Sequence record: MF158044
Direction: 5' to 3' (one strand)
DNA length: 64,000 nucleotides
Origin: Shigella phage Sf18
Part shown: piece by piece, positions 22,525 to 46,778 of the stretch
How positions within the stretch are numbered: position 1 is the first letter of the stretch
Layout of the letters: each line of letters starts with the position of its first letter
Notes under the pieces: generated by a model
Databases searched by the model: none
The model's input: only the letters and a program-made list of their open reading frames with translations
Told to the model about the DNA's origin: nothing
Program-made: the position numbers and the translations under genes

Positions 22525-23565
22525 ATGGAACAATACACCTTAACAAAGCTCCCAGAGAGCGTTACACACGTCTTTATTGACTCTGATAGCATTGCTTACA
22601 AAGGTGCTTGTGTAGTTGAAAAAGCAAAGTACAAGTATGTGAATAAAATCACTGCTGAAGAATCCGATGCTTTTGATAGTGCAAAACTGGCAGCACAATG
22701 GTTGTCTGACCAAAGAGTTTTAACTGAAGAGTTAGGACTTGACTTTGATGAAGATGAATGGGAAAGACAGACTTGGAAGGAGGCTAAGAGTGAAGCTGAA
22801 GCAATTATGGCTACACAGCAAGTTCTTCAGGAGTGGTTGAAAGTCGTTGGTAAAGAACGCAAATGGATGGGTTACCTTACTGAGAAAGGTGTTCACAAAC
22901 ACAAGGATATCAAAGGTCTTGAACACCAATATCAAGGTAACAGAAAAGAAGCTGTAACACCTACACACCTAGTTGCTTGTCGTGAGTATCTTCTGTCACG
23001 ACCAGAGTTTAAGCTCCTAAAGGGGGGCTTCGAAGCAGACTCTATCGTTATTGCAAAAGCTGAGAAGATGGGTAAAAAAGCTGCTCTGATGAGTATTGAT
23101 AAAGACCTTCGTCAAGCTGAAGGAACTTACTGTATTGATATGACTTATGAGAAAGCTCCATTAATTTTCATTGCAGATAATAACGTTGGTGAGATTTGGG
23201 ATTGCCCTATCAAATCTAAACCGAAAGCTAAGAAGACAGTCGGAGTAGGTTTTAAATTCCTCTGCTATCAAGTTGTAGCAGGTGATAATGCAGACAACTA
23301 CTTCGGTTTAAAAGGTGCTGGTAAGGTTGCGGTGATGAATGCACTGGAAGGTAAAACTACCTACAAAGAGTGCTTAGACGCAATCTATGAACTTTATGCT
23401 AAGAAAGAATCTTACACTTATGAATCGTGGGATGGTCAGATTGTGACAAGAACTCCACTAGAACTGATGGAGCAACACTTCTGGATTGCTTATCAAGAAC
23501 GAAATCCTAAAGATGATTTTACGTTTAAAAAATACAATTGGGAGCCAGTTATGAATGAAGATTAA
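22525..23565 (+). CDS. 5'-3' exonuclease / flap endonuclease
   Basis: Start at Met preceded by GGAGAG; acidic cluster FIDSDSIAY near N-terminus and H3TH-like segment GDNADNYFGLKGAGKVAV. Confidence 0.55.
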   Translation: MEQYTLTKLPESVTHVFIDSDSIAYKGACVVEKAKYKYVNKITAEESDAFDSAKLAAQWLSDQRVLTEELGLDFDEDEWERQTWKEAKSEAEAIMATQQVLQEWLKVVGKERKWMGYLTEKGVHKHKDIKGLEHQYQGNRKEAVTPTHLVACREYLLSRPEFKLLKGGFEADSIVIAKAEKMGKKAALMSIDKDLRQAEGTYCIDMTYEKAPLIFIADNNVGEIWDCPIKSKPKAKKTVGVGFKFLCYQVVAGDNADNYFGLKGAGKVAVMNALEGKTTYKECLDAIYELYAKKESYTYESWDGQIVTRTPLELMEQHFWIAYQERNPKDDFTFKKYNWEPVMNED

Positions 23566-24055
23566 AGGATTTGGAAATTGCCATGTTTATGGACATTGGA
23601 TTTCACTGTGCGGGGAAATTGACCCCGCTAACTATTTTGGTTTTGTCTATTTAGTATACTGTAAGAAAACTGGACAATATTATATTGGAAAGAAACAATT
23701 TAATAACGTCACTAAGAAAAAGGTTGCTGGAAAGACCAGACGTAAAGTCGTGACAAAAGAAAGTGATTGGATGACTTACCAAACATCTTCTGAGTACATT
23801 AAGAAGGATATTGAATCTTTTGGTGAAAAAGAGTTTGACTTCTACATCATCCAGACTTACTATACGCGAGGTGGCTTAGTTTATGGCGAAGCTAACCTAC
23901 AGCATAAGTTTGACGTCATGACAAAAAGGATTGACTCTAAGCTTCGACTCTTCTACAATGCGAACATTGCAGCAATCAAGTTTCTTACAAAAGAGACTTA
24001 TGATGAAGCTGAGAAGAGAATCACTAAAATCATGAAACTTAATGAGAGAGTTTAA
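23555..24055 (+). CDS. GIY-YIG homing endonuclease (Seg-like)
   Basis: 166 aa; GIY-YIG-like motif VYLVYCKKTGQYYIGKK, conserved Arg (GKTRRK) and Glu downstream. Confidence 0.5.
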   Translation: MKIKGFGNCHVYGHWISLCGEIDPANYFGFVYLVYCKKTGQYYIGKKQFNNVTKKKVAGKTRRKVVTKESDWMTYQTSSEYIKKDIESFGEKEFDFYIIQTYYTRGGLVYGEANLQHKFDVMTKRIDSKLRLFYNANIAAIKFLTKETYDEAEKRITKIMKLNERV

Positions 24056-35017: not shown

Positions 35018-35899
35018 ATGAAAACTACTATTCGAGTTCTACTTAATTCAAATTCCAAAGGTTCTCATCAAGAGACCTTCAACATTATCCAGTTCCCTTC
35101 TGGGGAGATTGGTGGTAACTTCTCAGAAGACTTAGTAGACTTTGCTGAACATGCTGCTGGTAAGATTGAAAACGTAATATTCACTGTACAAGGTTATGAC
35201 AAAGACACACTCTTTGCATTGGCTATGGCTAAAGAGGCTATTGACCGTTTGATTCCTCAGAAAGCAACCATGAAAACTGTTCTTTTTGGATTCTTACCAA
35301 ATGCTCGCTATGACCGTCACATGTTTAAAGGCGATTCAGCAGCACTTAAAGTCTTTGCAAATCTTGTAAATGCTATGGGGTTTGATGCAGTATGTGCTCT
35401 GGATACTCACAGTAATGTAGCAGAGAACTTGTTTAAGTGCTTCTACAACATCCCTCAAAAAGAGGCAGCAGTCCACTTTGCAAGTGACCCACGCATTGAT
35501 TACTTAGTGGCTCCAGATGCAGGTGCAGCTAAGAAGACTGAAGAGGCTGCTAAAGAGGTTGAGAAACCTTATATCACAATGGCAAAGGTACGAAACCTGA
35601 AAACTGGTGAAATCACTGGTATGCGAATCCTTGATGATGTAGACTTAACAGGTAAGACTGTTATGATTCTGGATGATATCTGTGATGGTGGTCGAACCTT
35701 TATCGAGGCTGCAAAGTATCTTCGTGAAGCTGGAGCAGAACGTGTAGAGCTTTATGTTACTCATGGGATTTTCTCTAAAGGTGTTGAAAATCTTCTTGAC
35801 AATGGCATCGACCATATCTACACTACAGACTCACTAGGGGATGAAAAAGACCGTGGTCTTTCCCACTTCTCACAAGTGACAGTAGCAAATATTGAATAA
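35018..35899 (+). CDS. ribose-phosphate pyrophosphokinase-like protein (Prs family; candidate ADPR-pyrophosphokinase)
   Basis: 293 aa; two PRTase-type lobes with phosphoribosyl-binding loop (VMILDDICDGGRT); directly upstream of NadV-like gene. Confidence 0.75.
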   Translation: MKTTIRVLLNSNSKGSHQETFNIIQFPSGEIGGNFSEDLVDFAEHAAGKIENVIFTVQGYDKDTLFALAMAKEAIDRLIPQKATMKTVLFGFLPNARYDRHMFKGDSAALKVFANLVNAMGFDAVCALDTHSNVAENLFKCFYNIPQKEAAVHFASDPRIDYLVAPDAGAAKKTEEAAKEVEKPYITMAKVRNLKTGEITGMRILDDVDLTGKTVMILDDICDGGRTFIEAAKYLREAGAERVELYVTHGIFSKGVENLLDNGIDHIYTTDSLGDEKDRGLSHFSQVTVANIE

Positions 35900-35943
35900 C
35901 AACTTTAGGGGCTGAAAAGCCCCACTTTGAGAGAGATAAAAAG

Positions 35944-37761
35944 ATGACTAAATCAATCTATGCAGTACCAGCAGGTCTTAATGCAGATGCTTATAAAGCG
36001 GGTCATATCTATCAGTATCCAGATGCTACACAGTATCTTATGTTGAACTTAACACCTCGTGGAGATAAATGGTTTAACTCTCCGTTAGAGATTGATGGTG
36101 TTGTAGCTTTTGGTATTCAGCGTTTTGTAAAAGACTATCTGGTAGACCACTGGAATGCAACGTTCTTTGAACGTGATAAGAAAGAAGCCATTGACGAAAT
36201 CTTGGAAATCATGAATGGTGTCCTTGGTGCAGATGCTATTGGTCGTCAACATTGGGAAGAACTTCATGACTTGGGTTACCTGCCTGTTGAAGTCTACTCT
36301 GTAGAGGAAGGTACAATTGTCCCTATGCGTGTCCCGATGATTGTCTTCAAAAACACTGTAGAAGGATTCCATTGGGTAGCTGGTTATCTTGAAGATGCTT
36401 TCTCTGCTGAAATCTGGAAGGCTTGTACGATTGCAACTATTGCACTGCATTACAAACGTATCTGTAAGCAATGGGCTGATAAGACCTGTGACAATGACTT
36501 CCATTTACCTTGGCAGTGTCATGACTTTGCAATGCGTGGTATGTCTGGCTTCACAGATGATGCGTTTAACGCAGTAGGTCACCTGACAAGTTTTAAAGGT
36601 ACTGACAGCTTCCCTGCTGTATATACAGCTAAACGTGCATATGGTCAGTTTATGAATGTAGGTGAGATTGGTAACTCTGTCCCAGCTACTGAGCACTCTG
36701 TGATGTGTGCAAACATCTCATGGAACAGTCTTAACAAAGAGGTAAGTGATTGGCATCTATCGCATTCTGACAACTTACTTGATGCAATGCGTTGGCGTGG
36801 TGAGGTAGAAACTTTCCATCGCCTTCTGACAGAAGTTTACCCAACTGGTATTGCAAGTGCCGTATCAGATACTTACAACTTCTGGCGTACTGTTACACAG
36901 ATTCTGCCAGAGCTACGTAATGTAATTCTGAATCGTGATGGTAAGTTGGTAATTCGTCCAGACTCTGGAGACCCTGTTCACATTGTTACAGGTTACAAAG
37001 CCATTGAATGGGAAACTGCTAAGTCAATGTTCTATAAGCACATGAAAGAGCTTGCACCGAACAATACACATCTGCATGACACAATCTTGAATTGTGAAAT
37101 GTCTGATATTGGCTTTGGGTTCTCTGCTTGGCTAATCTCTGAAGGTTATGAGATGGTTGTTGATAAAGAAGATTTTGAATCTGCTGATACAATCAACCTT
37201 ATTACTGCTCAGAAGACTGGACAGTTTACTGTGAAGCGTATGCTGACAGCAGAAATTGACGGAGCTATCCACACGCTGTATAACATCTTTGGTGGCACTG
37301 TTAACTCCAAAGGGTACAAAGTACTGGATGAGCACATTGGGCTAATCTACGGTGATTCTATCACTCTGGAAAGGGCTAATGATATTCTGTCACGTCTTGC
37401 TGATAAAGGTTTTGCAAGTTCTAACGTAGTGTTTGGTGTAGGTTCATACACCTATCAGTACCTGACTCGTGACACCTTTGCATTTGCTGTTAAAGCAACT
37501 CTTGCACAGATGGATGGTCAAGAAATTATGCTGGCTAAAGACCCTAAAACTGACAGCGGTCTTAAGAAGTCTGCTTTTGGTGGAGTTGTCCCTATGTGGG
37601 ATGGTGACAAGCTGGTAGCTGTAGATGGTTTTGGCTTTGCAGAGTTTGAAGGTGCAATTGACAATTGTCATAGTGCTTTGAAACTGGTATTTAGCAACTC
37701 GCAACCTTATGGTTACGTTAACCTGCGTGATGTTCGAAATACTATTGACAAGCAACTTTAA
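35944..37761 (+). CDS. nadV: nicotinamide phosphoribosyltransferase family protein (NadV/Nampt-like)
   Basis: 605 aa; Nampt-like N-terminus (AVPAGLNADAYKAGHIYQYP) and conserved core (GDSI, VFGVGSY blocks). Confidence 0.8.
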   Translation: MTKSIYAVPAGLNADAYKAGHIYQYPDATQYLMLNLTPRGDKWFNSPLEIDGVVAFGIQRFVKDYLVDHWNATFFERDKKEAIDEILEIMNGVLGADAIGRQHWEELHDLGYLPVEVYSVEEGTIVPMRVPMIVFKNTVEGFHWVAGYLEDAFSAEIWKACTIATIALHYKRICKQWADKTCDNDFHLPWQCHDFAMRGMSGFTDDAFNAVGHLTSFKGTDSFPAVYTAKRAYGQFMNVGEIGNSVPATEHSVMCANISWNSLNKEVSDWHLSHSDNLLDAMRWRGEVETFHRLLTEVYPTGIASAVSDTYNFWRTVTQILPELRNVILNRDGKLVIRPDSGDPVHIVTGYKAIEWETAKSMFYKHMKELAPNNTHLHDTILNCEMSDIGFGFSAWLISEGYEMVVDKEDFESADTINLITAQKTGQFTVKRMLTAEIDGAIHTLYNIFGGTVNSKGYKVLDEHIGLIYGDSITLERANDILSRLADKGFASSNVVFGVGSYTYQYLTRDTFAFAVKATLAQMDGQEIMLAKDPKTDSGLKKSAFGGVVPMWDGDKLVAVDGFGFAEFEGAIDNCHSALKLVFSNSQPYGYVNLRDVRNTIDKQL

Positions 37762-42199: not shown

Positions 42200-42260
42200 A
42201 TTTGAAAAATGTGCAGGTTAGTGTATAATTGTCTGCATGTTTAACAAAATAGGAGTGCAA

Positions 42261-42809
42261 ATGAAGAAATTTGTTTTAGGTTTGTGCTTATTCTTTACAG
42301 CACATTTAGCTACAGCATCTGACTGTCCAGAGCTTACAATCAGCCAGAAAGTTAATATGTTAAAAGCATATAACTATGGCGAAGGGCAGATGGGAAAAGG
42401 TTGGGGAATCCCTTTAGCAGCTATAGCCTTACAAGAGTCACAATTAGGTGTCATGTTAGAAAATAAAAAGACTCATGATTATGGTGTTTTCCAGAATCAC
42501 TTGAAGACTGTTGTAAAGCGTAACAAGGTATCTCCAAAGGTTGCTAAGAAGAAGCTAGTAAGTGACTTCCATTACTCAGCGAAAGAGGCTCATAAAGAGC
42601 TATTATTCTGGACTAAGGTTCATGGCAACCCAGATGGAAAGTACTCTATGAAGCGTGTCCTAGCTTCTTATAATGCTGGTTACAAATACAAGATTCCAAA
42701 GGCTAGACAATACTCTCAAGATGTGTACAATAACATGAAACTGCTTGCTCAATGTGAGTTTGCAACAAACATTAAAAAGGTAAAATATGAGCGAATCAAA
42801 ACAATTTGA
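42261..42809 (+). CDS. secreted lytic transglycosylase-like protein (GH23/SLT-like)
   Basis: Start at Met after AGGAG; signal peptide MKKFVLGLCLFFTAHLATA; E-S motif (ALQESQLG), G-x-x-Q (YGVFQ) and YNAG (LASYNAGY). Confidence 0.5.
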   Translation: MKKFVLGLCLFFTAHLATASDCPELTISQKVNMLKAYNYGEGQMGKGWGIPLAAIALQESQLGVMLENKKTHDYGVFQNHLKTVVKRNKVSPKVAKKKLVSDFHYSAKEAHKELLFWTKVHGNPDGKYSMKRVLASYNAGYKYKIPKARQYSQDVYNNMKLLAQCEFATNIKKVKYERIKTI

Positions 42810-43482
42810 CATGGTTCTGTGTCATGCTTATGATATTAAGCCACTTGATTTAGATATCAGTTCTGCAAGTTGGTCAGATATTACTAAAGCTGACTTTGCA
42901 GATACAGCAAGAAATGTTGTATGTAGTTTTGAAGACTTTCATTCAACAAAGACACAGGTTCCTTGTCAGGATTTGCTAACAGGTAAAACTGTGTATGTTG
43001 GTCGTAACAGCCTTATCTTGGTTGCAAAGAACTTGGAAGAAAAACGTAAAATGGTCTTAGCAGACATTGACGGTGTTCTTACAAGCTTTAATAAGGAGCT
43101 TAATGCAACTCTGCTAACTGATGGTACTTACTCACAGTACACTGATTTGGTAGAATCTTGCAGAGCTAAACCAACATATGTTTTTAACATTCTGTGTGGT
43201 ATATCAAGAAATGCTGATATAGGATTCTTAACTGCTCGTGGTGAATCACAAAGAGTTGTCACACATCTTTTCCTGAATGAGAATGTAGACAGTGATTTCC
43301 TACTGTTTATGCGTGGATTTGGTGACAATGAGATTAGTGCAGAAAGTTTGAAAGTTCGTATGCTTCAGTCTTGCATTCTACCTTACTATGATGTAGTATG
43401 CTTTATAGAAGATACAGTGAAGAACGTGGCAAAGGTAGAAAGAATCTTACCACACATCAAAACAATGCTTGTTAAAAACTGA
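42787..43482 (+). CDS. hypothetical protein, possible HAD-family phosphatase
   Basis: 231 aa; motif VLADIDGVLT resembles HAD motif I (DxDG[TV]); otherwise unassigned. Confidence 0.3.
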   Translation: MSESKQFDMVLCHAYDIKPLDLDISSASWSDITKADFADTARNVVCSFEDFHSTKTQVPCQDLLTGKTVYVGRNSLILVAKNLEEKRKMVLADIDGVLTSFNKELNATLLTDGTYSQYTDLVESCRAKPTYVFNILCGISRNADIGFLTARGESQRVVTHLFLNENVDSDFLLFMRGFGDNEISAESLKVRMLQSCILPYYDVVCFIEDTVKNVAKVERILPHIKTMLVKN

Positions 43483-45334: not shown

Positions 45335-45527
45335 TTTCTGCACTAAGTGTTCTGTTGAGATGTTTGGAAAAGACACAGGGGACTTAAAAGGCCTCTTTAC
45401 AAAAGCAGAGTTTGAAGCTGGTTCAGCAATGCCAGTAATCTGTGAAGGTTGTGGTGCTTTATGGGTAGACCATGAAGGTAACCGAGTTAAACCATCTGAA
45501 GATAACGAACGTTGGGAGCATTACTAA
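45327..45527 (+). CDS. small zinc-ribbon protein
   Basis: 66 aa with CxxC...CxxC (CTKCS...CEGCG). Confidence 0.35.
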   Translation: MADFCTKCSVEMFGKDTGDLKGLFTKAEFEAGSAMPVICEGCGALWVDHEGNRVKPSEDNERWEHY

Positions 45528-45528
45528 T

Positions 45529-46323
45529 ATGGGTATCGTAAAAATTATTAAAGGTGATATCTTTAAAGACTTTGATGGTAAGAAATTTGATATCATTGGT
45601 CACGGTTGTAACTGCATGAACTTGATGGGTGCAGGTATTGCAGCAACAATTGCTAAACGCTACCCAAAAGCTTATGAAACTGACGCTGAAGTTTATGCTA
45701 CAGTAGGTGGTGAAAATCATAACCCTAAGCATCTAATGCTTGGTAACATCTCTGTAGCACGTTTTAAGCAGGGTCGAATTGCTAACCTTTACACTCAGGT
45801 TATCACTGGCAAAGATGCACGATACAACGCCTTAGAAGCAGCTTTACAGCGTCTTAACAACTACTGTAAAGTTAATCAACTTAAGAAAGTTGGGCTTCCG
45901 ATGATTGGTGCAGGGATTGGTGGTCTTGATAGCATGGCTGTACTGTCCATTATCAACCAGACTATGAAGGATGTTGACGTTTATATGTATGTCTATGAAG
46001 ATAAGATGTACAGTCAGTTGACTAGTCCTGTTACTGGTTGGGAGAACTTCAGTGAGCCTCAATACTTTGATGGTGTTGCTGTGGTAGGCAAGGATAAAGT
46101 TACCCTCAAGGTGAAGCGTAATGGCAAGGTACACACCAGTTACCCTCCGGTTGAGAAGTACAATCGAAGTAACGCTCAAGTTACCCACCCGTTACAAGGT
46201 CACCACCACAGAGCGGTAACGTTTAGCGATGATGCAAGTGTATATATCAATGCGACTACAGAAGAGTTTGCAGAAGATTATATCACACATGAAAACGTAA
46301 ACTATGTTGAAGCACGTAACTAA
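45529..46323 (+). CDS. macro-domain protein (ADP-ribose binding/hydrolase family)
   Basis: Start at Met (MGIVKIIKGDIF); macro signatures GDIF, DIIGHGCNCMNLMGAGIAATI, VGLPMIGAGIGGL; C-terminal 120 aa unassigned. Confidence 0.55.
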   Translation: MGIVKIIKGDIFKDFDGKKFDIIGHGCNCMNLMGAGIAATIAKRYPKAYETDAEVYATVGGENHNPKHLMLGNISVARFKQGRIANLYTQVITGKDARYNALEAALQRLNNYCKVNQLKKVGLPMIGAGIGGLDSMAVLSIINQTMKDVDVYMYVYEDKMYSQLTSPVTGWENFSEPQYFDGVAVVGKDKVTLKVKRNGKVHTSYPPVEKYNRSNAQVTHPLQGHHHRAVTFSDDASVYINATTEEFAEDYITHENVNYVEARN

Positions 46324-46391
46324 TAAGTTACCCAGATAAACATAGACAAGCCCTCCAAAGTTTGAGTTTAAAATCTCAGGTAAGGGGGGCT

Positions 46392-46576
46392 TTTTCATTT
46401 TAAATTTGTGCAGGTATAGTTGCATAGAACTCTGGACAGATTTCTTTAGCTGAACTCCAAAGGGAAAATTCATTTCAAATTTGTGCAGGTTTAGACTCCA
46501 AAGGGATTTTTCATTTTCAATCTGTGCAGATGCAGTTGGACTCCAAAGGGAAAATTCATTTTCAGTTTGTGCAGGT
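46392..46576. repeat. tandem array of four ~42-bp repeats with TTTGTGCAGGT core
   Basis: Units (CTCCAAAGGG)(A/T)TTCATTT(Y)MARTYTGTGCAGRT at about 46392, 46466, 46507, 46552; followed by C-rich tract 46596-46630; related motif upstream of SLT-like gene at 42203-42230. Confidence 0.55.
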
Positions 46577-46749
46577 AGGTAGCTGTAGGAAACCAGCCCC
46601 ACCACCCCCTCTTACTCCCCTTCCTCCCAAAAGTCAAGAGAAAAATTTGTAGAGAACTCAAAAATAATTCTTGACTAGATTCCTGTTTTAGTGTATCCGC
46701 ATACGTGCGTTCTATTCACGAAGCATCGAAAATATTTTTAAAAATTTTG

Positions 46750-46778
46750 TTGACTTCATAAATCCAGTCTTATAGTAT
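46750..46778 (+). promoter_or_regulatory. type-B early promoter (first of array)
   Basis: TTGACT, spacer, TATAGTAT, then ATTTGCATCAACGGGAAACATCCC and conserved leader AACAATCCTAAACTGGAG. Confidence 0.4.

What the first reader, a model, noticed from the sequence alone, without database searches (positions are those of the whole stretch)
45529..46323. Macro-domain protein with an unassigned C-terminal extension
The first 160 residues carry macro-domain signatures (GDIF; DIIGHGCNCMNLMGAGIAATI; VGLPMIGAGIGGL), implying ADP-ribose or ADP-ribosyl-protein binding or hydrolysis. Phage macro domains can reverse host ADP-ribosylation or consume ADP-ribose-derived signals; here one is encoded in a genome that also has the NAD-related pair. 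The extra 120 C-terminal residues have no recognisable motif.
Basis: partly seen in the sequence, partly recalled or inferred. Interest (0 to 1): 0.5.

Follow-up and report, generated by a model that had tools for sequence, protein, structure and literature searches.

The report
Phage macro-domain enzyme with orphan tail
This Felix-O1-type phage gene encodes an ADP-ribose-processing (macro-domain) enzyme of a family that other phages use to undo bacterial NAD/ADP-ribose-based immunity; it is fused to a small extra domain found only in this phage group, and that domain's role is unknown.

Summary
Window 45529-46323 (+) is a real 264-aa gene in an Ounavirinae (Mooglevirus-like) phage. Residues 1-157 form a confident macro domain. 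Residues 158-264 form a beta-rich extension with no detectable relative outside this protein family.

The macro domain belongs to the TARG1/DarG/Poa1p branch, within the widespread phage family of T4 Tk.4. Two members have been characterised recently:
- T4 Tk.4 (AdfM) is needed to resist the DarTG2 DNA-ADP-ribosylating defence.
- Vibrio phage Gary Adpp is an ADP-ribose-1''-phosphate phosphatase. It lets the NAD+ rebuilding pathway NARP1 overcome the aRES defence.

The window protein is about equally distant from both. It keeps the ADP-ribose-binding loops and the His needed by Adpp. Like both relatives, it has Gln where DarG and TARG1 have their catalytic Lys. The same genome carries NARP1 (35018-37761), 7.7 kb upstream, and this arrangement is conserved across the subfamily.

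I rank an unlinked Adpp role slightly first and an AdfM role a close, non-exclusive second. The extension is under purifying selection but changes about 2.5 times faster than the macro domain, so it may be a specificity or partner-binding module.

Relatives are already annotated as "phosphatase, macro domain". This is a new variant of a known kind, of moderate interest.

The parts
45529..46323 (+). Complete gene: 264 codons plus the TAA stop, encoding the two-domain macro protein
   Evidence: ORF listing and sequence. There are 96-36% identical full-length homologues, all starting at the same Met. The matching CDS is annotated 'phosphatase; contains macro domain' in Citrobacter phage Mordin and Shigella phage Sf13. 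phrog_335 matches at E 2e-106.
45514..45518 (+). Shine-Dalgarno-like GGGAG, 10 nt upstream of the ATG. The start codon sits one base after the stop of the upstream ORF, suggesting translational coupling.
   Evidence: Read directly from the sequence.
45529..45999 (+). Macro domain, residues 1-157. Key residues are D10 (adenine contact), H25, N28, loop 1 M33-G-A-G-I-A38, N86-L-Y-T-Q90, and loop 2 P124-M-I-G-A-G-I-G-G132.
46000..46320 (+). C-terminal extension, residues 158-264. A conserved linker motif N-[FY]-[SG]-x-P-x-x-F-D-G (residues 172-182) is followed by six short beta strands and one helix.
   Evidence: The full-length model predicts this region confidently (pLDDT about 76-92) and places it against the macro domain (pTM 0.89). 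In a 1.84-billion-protein library it occurs only in macro proteins of Ounavirinae-type phages: 4 representatives plus 1 fragment. No family or fold match was found. dN/dS is 0.09-0.55, and dN is about 2.5 times that of the macro domain.
46348..46401 (+). Terminator-like hairpin (AAGCCCUCC ... GGGGGGCUU) followed by a U-rich run, 25 nt after the stop codon. It is the probable 3' end of the early gene block that the macro gene closes.
   Evidence: RNA fold: dG -20.5 kcal/mol, z -2.5 against shuffles. The simple terminator scan missed it, probably because the hairpin has an interior loop rather than a single 3-8-nt loop.
35018..35899 (+). Prs-like gene, a probable Adps (ADP-ribose pyrophosphokinase of NARP1). 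Listed as an inferred functional partner, not as part of the gene itself.
   Evidence: Pfam Pribosyltran and Pribosyl_synth, and phrog_619. Felixounavirus proteins are 77-83% identical. NARP1 was defined on genes 79-80 of the Felixounavirus Bas63.
35944..37761 (+). Nampt-like gene, a probable Namat (nicotinamide ADP-ribose transferase of NARP1). Listed as an inferred functional partner.
   Evidence: Pfam NAPRTase and NAMPT_N, and phrog_448 at E 2e-199. It is adjacent to the Prs-like gene, as in Bas63. The same pair lies upstream of the macro gene in the Kolesnikvirus record.

Best explanation
The gene encodes the Ounavirinae form of the phage Poa1p-like macro enzyme family, which includes T4 Tk.4/AdfM and Vibrio phage Gary Adpp.

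What is shown: it sits in the early-type gene block downstream of rIIA/rIIB. Its N-terminal macro domain has an intact ADP-ribose pocket.

What is inferred: the domain hydrolyses whatever is attached to C1'' of the distal ribose.

The role I rank first is ADP-ribose-1''-phosphate phosphatase, that is, Adpp acting from an unlinked position:
1. A RES-type defence such as aRES splits NAD+ into nicotinamide and ADPR-1''-P. The phage's own NARP1 enzymes cannot use ADPR-1''-P.
2. The macro enzyme removes the phosphate.
3. The Prs-like Adps (35018-35899) and Nampt-like Namat (35944-37761) rebuild NAD+ from the resulting ADPR and nicotinamide.

The same active site may also remove DarT2-type ADP-ribose from thymidine in single-stranded phage DNA, as inferred for T4 Tk.4. 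I treat that as a close and non-exclusive second.

The 105-residue C-terminal domain is a lineage-specific beta-rich module predicted to pack on the macro domain. I infer that it tunes substrate or partner specificity rather than catalysing anything itself.
For: Family membership:
- Macro fold and pocket residues are conserved.
- 40% identity to T4 Tk.4 (E 2e-19). 31% identity over 164 aa to the Gary-type Adpp of Vibrio phage Morian (E 8e-20). Morian's gene sits between Adps and Namat.
- The NARP1-linked macro proteins of Table S1 in the Adpp preprint share the same H-x-x-N-C and N-x-[YH]-x-Q signature.

Support for the Adpp chemistry:
- The His whose H24A mutation inactivates Gary Adpp is H25 here, and it is invariant in the family.
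- Purified Gary Adpp converts ADPR-1P to ADPR and is required to beat aRES.
- Gln replaces the Lys that DarG and TARG1 use for glycohydrolysis, which fits a phosphatase better than a DarG-type mechanism.

Context:
- The genome carries the Prs-like/Nampt-like pair. That pair was shown to be NARP1 in the Felixounavirus Bas63.
- The order NARP1 ... rIIA-rIIB ... PNK ... spanins ... macro is seen in Mooglevirus and in the most divergent genus sampled, Kolesnikvirus. Two uncultured relatives show its rIIB-to-macro part.
- The gene is full length in 200 of 201 Felixounavirus records, including Felix O1.
- Each phage record almost always holds a single copy of the family: 2796 places in 2789 records.
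Against: - The gene is not in the NARP1 operon. It lies 7.7 kb and 13 genes downstream. No Escherichia, Salmonella, Shigella, Citrobacter or Erwinia phage appears in the preprint's list of NARP1-associated macro genes.
- T4 has the same family. As far as I know it has no NARP1 (my own knowledge, not tested here), and there the gene protects against DarTG2.
- The neighbour-joining tree puts the Ounavirinae proteins in their own clade (70% bootstrap), equidistant from T4 Tk.4 and from the NARP1-linked proteins. Sequence therefore does not decide between the two roles.
- A small-molecule phosphatase has no obvious need for an extra domain.
- There is no biochemical or genetic work on any Ounavirinae member in the library I searched.
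Confidence: 0.42

Rival explanations
1. AdfM role. The macro domain removes ADP-ribose that the DarT2 toxin places on thymidine in single-stranded phage DNA. This restores replication in hosts that carry DarTG2. The C-terminal domain would direct the enzyme to ssDNA or the replisome, or would bind DarT itself. This role is not exclusive of the Adpp role.
For: - The highest pairwise identity to a characterised protein is with T4 Tk.4 (40% over 136 aa). Its knockout sensitises T4 to DarTG2.
- DarG is the best NCBIfam hit and the only PADLOC hit (E 1e-14 and 6e-15).
- PhiKZ AdfM shows that orphan phage macro proteins can strip DarT2 marks from DNA.
- An extra domain makes more sense for a macromolecular substrate or partner.
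Against: - The DarG catalytic Lys (K80; K78 in PhiKZ AdfM) is Gln here.
- T4 Tk.4 has no biochemistry yet.
- The verified phosphatase-type protein, the Gary-like Adpp of Morian, scores higher on the DarG profile than T4 Tk.4 does (46 against 36 bits). DarG-likeness therefore does not discriminate between the roles.
- The C-terminal domain has no consistent charge (pI 4.8-9.8 across homologues) and no OB- or SH3-like fold match.
Confidence: 0.35
2. A housekeeping or RNA-repair-linked role. The enzyme would dispose of ADP-ribose-1''-phosphate or O-acetyl-ADP-ribose produced by host or phage RNA-repair or sirtuin reactions, or would remove mono-ADP-ribose from proteins. In this reading it has no specific anti-defence function.
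For: - Similarity to yeast Poa1p, the enzyme that clears the tRNA-splicing by-product.
- A polynucleotide-kinase-like HAD gene lies 2 kb upstream in the same block.
- Iyer et al. 2022 note that phage macro genes often sit with RNA-repair and host-manipulation genes.
Against: - No RNA ligase or 2'-phosphotransferase (Tpt1/KptA) is annotated in the parts of the Sf13 genome I inspected, about 72 of its 87.6 kb. The by-product source is therefore missing.
- The TARG1 catalytic pair K84/D125 is absent; the window protein has Q90 and G131 at those positions.
- Both characterised relatives act in counter-defence.
Confidence: 0.1
3. A non-catalytic binder. The protein would sequester ADP-ribose-derived immune signals such as Thoeris cyclic ADPR isomers, or free ADPR. 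The C-terminal domain would close over the ligand or mediate oligomerisation.
For: - The loss of the Lys used by DarG and TARG1 could indicate a binding-only macro domain.
- Phage sponges for ADPR-derived signals are known (mentioned in the abstract listed).
Against: - A family member with the same residues, Gary Adpp, is a demonstrated enzyme, and its conserved His is essential.
- N28 and H25 are invariant across the family, as expected for catalysis.
Confidence: 0.06

Closest known systems
T4 Tk.4 = AdfM (anti-DarT factor, macro; HIDEN-SEQ preprint 10.1101/2025.11.20.689424)
   Same: Same phage macro family. 40% identity over 136 aa. Shared motifs KGDI, HGCNC, MG-x-G, NLYTQ and IGAGIG. Both are orphan genes in a lytic myovirus, located among early-type genes.
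   Different: T4 Tk.4 is 155 aa and has no C-terminal domain. Its role against DarTG2 rests on genetics only. As far as I know T4 lacks NARP1 (my own knowledge). The Ounavirinae proteins form a separate clade.
Adpp of Vibrio phage Gary (NARP1-AP; preprint 10.64898/2026.01.28.702374)
   Same: Poa1p-like macro protein with the same signature: His (H24 in Gary, H25 here) and N-x-Y-x-Q. The near-identical Morian homologue is 31% identical over 164 aa. Both phage genomes carry Adps and Namat.
   Different: Adpp is about 158 aa, is a single domain, and sits between Adps and Namat. The window gene is 7.7 kb from NARP1 and carries an extra domain. The activity has been measured for Gary only.
DarG antitoxin macro domain (M. 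tuberculosis 5M3I, T. aquaticus 5M31/5M3E, T. africanus 7OMU)
   Different: - Catalytic K80 is Gln.
- Only the N-terminal half of the DarG profile matches: 54.6 bits against a cut-off of 250.
- There is no DarT-binding domain and no adjacent darT gene.
- Sequence identity is 24-25%.
PhiKZ gp104 AdfM (Cell Rep 2026, PMC13309987)
   Same: An orphan phage macro protein of the DarG-like branch used as a counter-defence.
   Different: PhiKZ AdfM keeps the DarG-type Lys (K78) and has been shown to remove DarT2 marks from DNA. The window protein has Gln at that position. I made no direct sequence comparison.
Human TARG1/OARD1 and yeast Poa1p
   Different: TARG1 K84 and D125 correspond to Q90 and G131 here. 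Both are cellular single-domain proteins with different biology.

Membership tests
Macro domain superfamily (Pfam PF01661) | Profile score above the curated cut-off | tested here: met
   32.9 bits against a cut-off of 22, E 7e-8, profile positions 2-117 of 118.
Macro domain superfamily (Pfam PF01661) | Three-layer alpha/beta macro fold | tested here: met
Macro domain superfamily (Pfam PF01661) | ADP-ribose pocket: N-terminal Asp plus two Gly-rich loops | tested here: met
   D10, M33/G34/G36/A38 and P124/G127/G129 are invariant or at least 90% conserved in 32 homologues. They align with the same loops of DarG and TARG1. Binding itself was not measured.
DarG antitoxin (NCBIfam NF048014 / PADLOC DarG) | Whole-protein profile score at the equivalog cut-off | tested here: not met
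   54.6 bits against a cut-off of 250. Only profile positions 2-153 of 338 are matched. PADLOC matches positions 5-147 of 329.
DarG antitoxin (NCBIfam NF048014 / PADLOC DarG) | Catalytic Lys (K80 in T. aquaticus and M. tuberculosis DarG) | tested here: not met
   NFPTK in DarG aligns with NLYTQ here, placing Q90 at the Lys position. Q90 is invariant in the phage family.
DarG antitoxin (NCBIfam NF048014 / PADLOC DarG) | C-terminal DarT-binding domain and an adjacent darT gene | tested here: not met
   The C-terminal half of the DarG profiles is unmatched. The neighbours are small phage ORFs with no ART-domain match or annotation.
AdfM (phage anti-DarT macro factors) | Homology to a validated AdfM | tested here: met
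   40% identity, E 2e-19 to T4 Tk.4. No direct comparison with PhiKZ gp104 was made.
AdfM (phage anti-DarT macro factors) | [quoted passage not shown] | not testable with these tools
   Requires plaque assays and an oligonucleotide de-ADP-ribosylation assay.
Adpp / NARP1-AP (ADPR-1''-P phosphatase) | Poa1p-like macro protein with the essential His (H24 in Gary Adpp) | tested here: met
   H25 is invariant. The H24A construct is listed in the preprint's Table S4. Poa1p similarity is shown.
Adpp / NARP1-AP (ADPR-1''-P phosphatase) | Adps and Namat present in the same genome | tested here: met
   Prs-like gene at 35018-35899 and Nampt-like gene at 35944-37761. Orthology to Bas63 NARP1 is inferred from 77-83% identity to Felixounavirus proteins and from taxonomy.
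Adpp / NARP1-AP (ADPR-1''-P phosphatase) | Gene lies within the NARP1 operon (the preprint's criterion: within two genes) | tested here: not met
   13 genes and 7.7 kb separate Namat from the macro gene. No enterobacterial or Erwinia phage name occurs in Table S1.
Adpp / NARP1-AP (ADPR-1''-P phosphatase) | Converts ADPR-1''-P to ADPR | not testable with these tools
   Requires purified protein and LC-MS.
TARG1/OARD1 | Catalytic dyad K84 / D125 | tested here: not met
   These positions align to Q90 and G131.

The most novel reading that the evidence does not exclude
The Ounavirinae protein may be a two-pronged counter-defence factor. In this reading, a generalist C1''-hydrolase processes both ADPR-1''-phosphate from RES-type NADases and DarT2 marks on DNA. 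Both reactions would release free ADPR that the phage's NARP1 recycles into NAD+. This hydrolase is fused to a fast-evolving, structurally new domain that binds a defence protein directly (for example DarT or aRES) or tethers the enzyme to the replisome. That would be analogous in logic, though not in ancestry, to DarG's macro plus toxin-binding architecture.
Probability: 0.15. Interest if true: 0.65.

Novelty: new variant of a known kind. Interest (0 to 1): 0.4.

Why it matters
NARP1 was discovered in a Felix-O1-type phage. A later preprint showed that NARP1 alone fails against RES-type NAD+ phosphorylases unless a macro-domain phosphatase is added. That survey counted only macro genes adjacent to NARP1, and no enterobacterial or Erwinia phage appears in its table.

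If the conserved but unlinked macro gene of Ounavirinae supplies that activity, the founding NARP1 phages are already NARP1-AP phages. The frequency of this counter-defence would then be underestimated.

If the gene is instead an AdfM, it extends anti-DarTG2 macro factors to a large group of phage-therapy-relevant Salmonella, E. coli and Shigella phages.

Either way, this family poses a mechanistic question. T4 AdfM, Gary Adpp and this protein all have Gln where DarG has its essential Lys, so how T4 AdfM counters DarT2 is unexplained. The orphan C-terminal domain is a candidate new specificity or inhibitor module.

Tried and rejected
- Alternative start at 45472: rejected. It overlaps the upstream ORF, and all aligned full-length homologues start at the 45529 Met.
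- DarG membership: rejected on score, catalytic Lys and the missing C-terminal half.
- C-terminal domain as a DarG-like toxin-binding domain: no profile match.
- C-terminal domain as a mobile domain found elsewhere: an exhaustive HMMER search of 1.84 billion representatives found it only in this macro family, plus one N-terminally truncated fragment. There were also weak multi-repeat hits (E 2e-6 to 6e-4) to large proteins; the four I scanned are PQQ-type beta-propellers. I read these as a shared beta-hairpin motif, not homology.
- Similarity to the aRES inhibitor aRad1 (about 70 aa): none by inspection of the published sequences.
- Consistent charge suggesting a DNA mimic or DNA binder: none.
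- Phylogeny to choose between Adpp and AdfM: unresolved. The Ounavirinae clade is equidistant from both (the first attempt timed out).
- DarG-profile scores to discriminate: uninformative.
- Rfam on the downstream repeat region: no match.
- The AFDB50 fold library was unavailable.

Full report
**What the window is**

The region around the finding is 97-98% identical to Shigella phages Henu11, KPS64 and Sf13, and 92% identical to Citrobacter phages Mordin and Michonne. These are Ounavirinae of the genus Mooglevirus. The finding lies in a long rightward block of mostly small genes. In relatives this block is annotated as rIIA, rIIB, a RegB/lysozyme-like protein, a HAD-type polynucleotide kinase, spanins, four small hypothetical genes and then a 'phosphatase; contains macro domain'.

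**The observation**

The gene runs from 45529 to 46323 on the + strand and encodes 264 aa.
- ORF listing offers a longer frame from 45472. The ATG at 45529 is the real start. It lies one base after the upstream stop, has GGGAG ten bases upstream, and is the start of all aligned full-length homologues.
- Pfam Macro is matched above its cut-off.
- phrog_335 ('phosphatase') matches end to end at E 2e-106.
- An AlphaFold2 model built on 32 homologues is confident throughout (pLDDT 91.5, pTM 0.89).
- A hairpin followed by a U-run begins 25 nt after the stop (dG -20.5, z -2.5). The gene therefore probably closes its transcription unit.

**Which macro subfamily**

- Sequence profiles against the PDB rank TARG1 (2e-17), M. 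tuberculosis DarG (7e-15), BT1257, Poa1p (6e-14) and T. aquaticus DarG.
- DarG is the best NCBIfam hit and the only PADLOC hit, but only through its N-terminal half and far below the equivalog cut-off.
- Alignment with DarG sequences confirmed against the PDB shows that the adenine-binding Asp, the two Gly loops and the Asn equivalent to T. aquaticus DarG N22 are kept.
- The catalytic Lys of DarG (K80) and TARG1 (K84) is Gln90, inside an invariant N-L-Y-T-Q motif. TARG1 D125 is Gly.
- The protein is therefore not a DarG or a TARG1, although it shares their fold.

**The phage family and its characterised members**

tblastn finds relatives of the macro domain in 2,789 of 50,697 phage records, almost always as a single copy. 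These include the tk.4 genes of T4-like phages.
- T4 Tk.4 is 40% identical. A 2025 preprint named it AdfM because transposon and clean knockouts sensitise T4 to DarTG2. No enzymology was reported.
- A different, Lys-containing macro protein, PhiKZ gp104, was shown to strip DarT2 marks from DNA.
- A 2026 preprint showed that a Poa1p-like macro protein, Adpp, is an ADPR-1''-phosphate phosphatase. It is encoded between the two NARP1 genes of Vibrio phage Gary. It lets NARP1 overcome aRES, a RES-domain NAD+ phosphorylase, and an H24A construct was among its inactivated variants.
- The near-identical Morian homologue is 31% identical to the window protein.
- The NARP1-linked macro proteins in the preprint's Table S1, T4 Tk.4 and the window protein share the His and the N-x-[YH]-x-Q signature, with Gln at the DarG Lys position.
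- A neighbour-joining tree places the Ounavirinae proteins in their own clade (70% bootstrap). That clade is equidistant from T4 Tk.4 and from the closest NARP1-linked proteins (distance about 1.4 to each). It is well separated from DarG and TARG1.
- DarG-profile scores do not discriminate either.

**Context**

- The 'NAD-related pair' is a Prs-like gene (35018-35899) and a Nampt-like gene (35944-37761).
- The same pair in the Felixounavirus Bas63 (genes 79-80) is where NARP1 (Adps plus Namat) was discovered. Felixounavirus homologues of the window's Prs-like protein are 77-83% identical.
- The macro gene lies 7.7 kb and 13 genes downstream on the same strand. This is outside the two-gene window used by the Adpp preprint. 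No Escherichia, Salmonella, Shigella, Citrobacter or Erwinia phage appears in that preprint's table.
- The order NARP1 ... rIIAB ... PNK ... spanins ... macro is seen in Mooglevirus and in the most divergent genus sampled, Kolesnikvirus. Two uncultured relatives show its rIIB-to-macro part.
- The gene is full length in 200 of 201 Felixounavirus records, including Felix O1.
- No RNA ligase or Tpt1-type enzyme is annotated in the parts of the Sf13 genome I inspected, about 72 of its 87.6 kb. This weakens an RNA-repair by-product role.

**The C-terminal extension**

- Residues 158-264 begin with a conserved linker motif, N-[FY]-[SG]-x-P-x-x-F-D-G. Six short strands and a helix follow.
- The full-length model predicts the extension confidently and packs it on the macro domain (pTM 0.89). 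Modelled alone it is less confident (pLDDT 78.7).
- An exhaustive profile search of 1.84 billion representative proteins found it only in these macro proteins and one truncated fragment. The remaining weak hits were multi-repeat matches to large proteins; the four I scanned are PQQ-type propellers. I regard these as motif-level resemblance.
- All carriers I examined are Ounavirinae-type phages with the same synteny.
- Codon analysis shows purifying selection (dN/dS 0.09-0.55). Non-synonymous divergence between genera is about 2.5 times that of the macro domain (0.47-0.51 against 0.18-0.20).
- Net charge is not conserved.
- The extension is therefore a real, maintained, faster-evolving, lineage-specific domain of unknown fold class.

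**Mechanism**

What is shown:
- a conserved gene in an early-type gene block;
- an intact ADP-ribose pocket;
- membership of a phage family with two counter-defence members;
- co-residence with NARP1.

What is inferred: hydrolysis at ribose C1''.

I rank the Adpp role slightly first (0.42). The active-site signature is exactly that of the one biochemically verified member, the DarG-type Lys is absent, and the pathway that would use the product is encoded in every genome examined. The AdfM role is a close second (0.35) and is compatible with the first. The main arguments against Adpp are the lack of operon linkage and the presence of the family in T4, which as far as I know lacks NARP1. The extra domain fits a macromolecular substrate or partner better than a small molecule. 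That keeps the AdfM reading and the direct-binding reading alive.

**Novelty and verdict**

The macro domain is already annotated in RefSeq relatives, and its family now has known functions, so the core of the finding is ordinary. Three things are new. The first is the two-domain Ounavirinae architecture with an orphan domain. The second is the hypothesis that the founding NARP1 phages carry an unlinked Adpp; it can be tested with existing Bas63 tools. The third is that T4 AdfM, Gary Adpp and this protein all lack the Lys that DarG needs. I score interest at 0.4 and class it as a new variant of a known kind.

Noticed in passing
window 46373-46576: Four copies of a direct repeat of about 43 nt lie in the intergenic region just downstream of the macro gene. 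The core is TTCATTTYMAATYTGTGCAG, which occurs nowhere else in the window (0.11 expected by chance). The first copy overlaps the terminator-like hairpin. There is no Rfam match and no significant fold. Relatives align here in two pieces, suggesting variation in copy number. Sf13 and Mordin annotate a minus-strand ORF across the repeats that is probably spurious.
   Followed up: partly
window 46594-46630 and 46750-46778: A C-rich tract (CCAGCCCCACCACCCCCTCTTACTCCCCTTCCTCCC) is followed by a sigma-70-like TTGACT-17-TAGTAT site ahead of the next block of small genes. This is probably the start of a new early transcription unit.
   Followed up: no
window 23555-24055: This 166-aa ORF matches the SegE-type GIY-YIG endonuclease domain (Pfam E 1e-27). 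The corresponding gene is annotated 'NAD synthetase' in Shigella phage Sf13 and in an Erwinia Kolesnikvirus record, which is likely a propagated misannotation.
   Followed up: partly
window 35018-37761: The Prs-like and Nampt-like pair corresponds to NARP1 (Adps + Namat), first characterised in the related Felixounavirus Bas63. Public records still annotate the genes as ribose-phosphate pyrophosphokinase and nicotinamide phosphoribosyltransferase.
   Followed up: partly
L002 5923-6390 (T4 tk.4) and L010 3932-4408 (Vibrio phage Morian gp169): T4 AdfM and the Gary-type Adpp are 34% identical homologues, and both have Gln at the position of DarG's essential Lys. The two preprints describe them independently with different functions. 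How a Lys-less macro domain counters DarT2 in T4 is unexplained.
   Followed up: partly
window 42237-43482: A lysozyme/SLT-like protein (annotated as RegB-like in Mordin) and a HAD-type polynucleotide-kinase-like protein overlap by 23 nt upstream in the same block. The PNK-like ORF has no Pfam hit at E <= 0.01. In two uncultured relatives its homologue carries only weak or faint HAD_PNKP hits.
   Followed up: no
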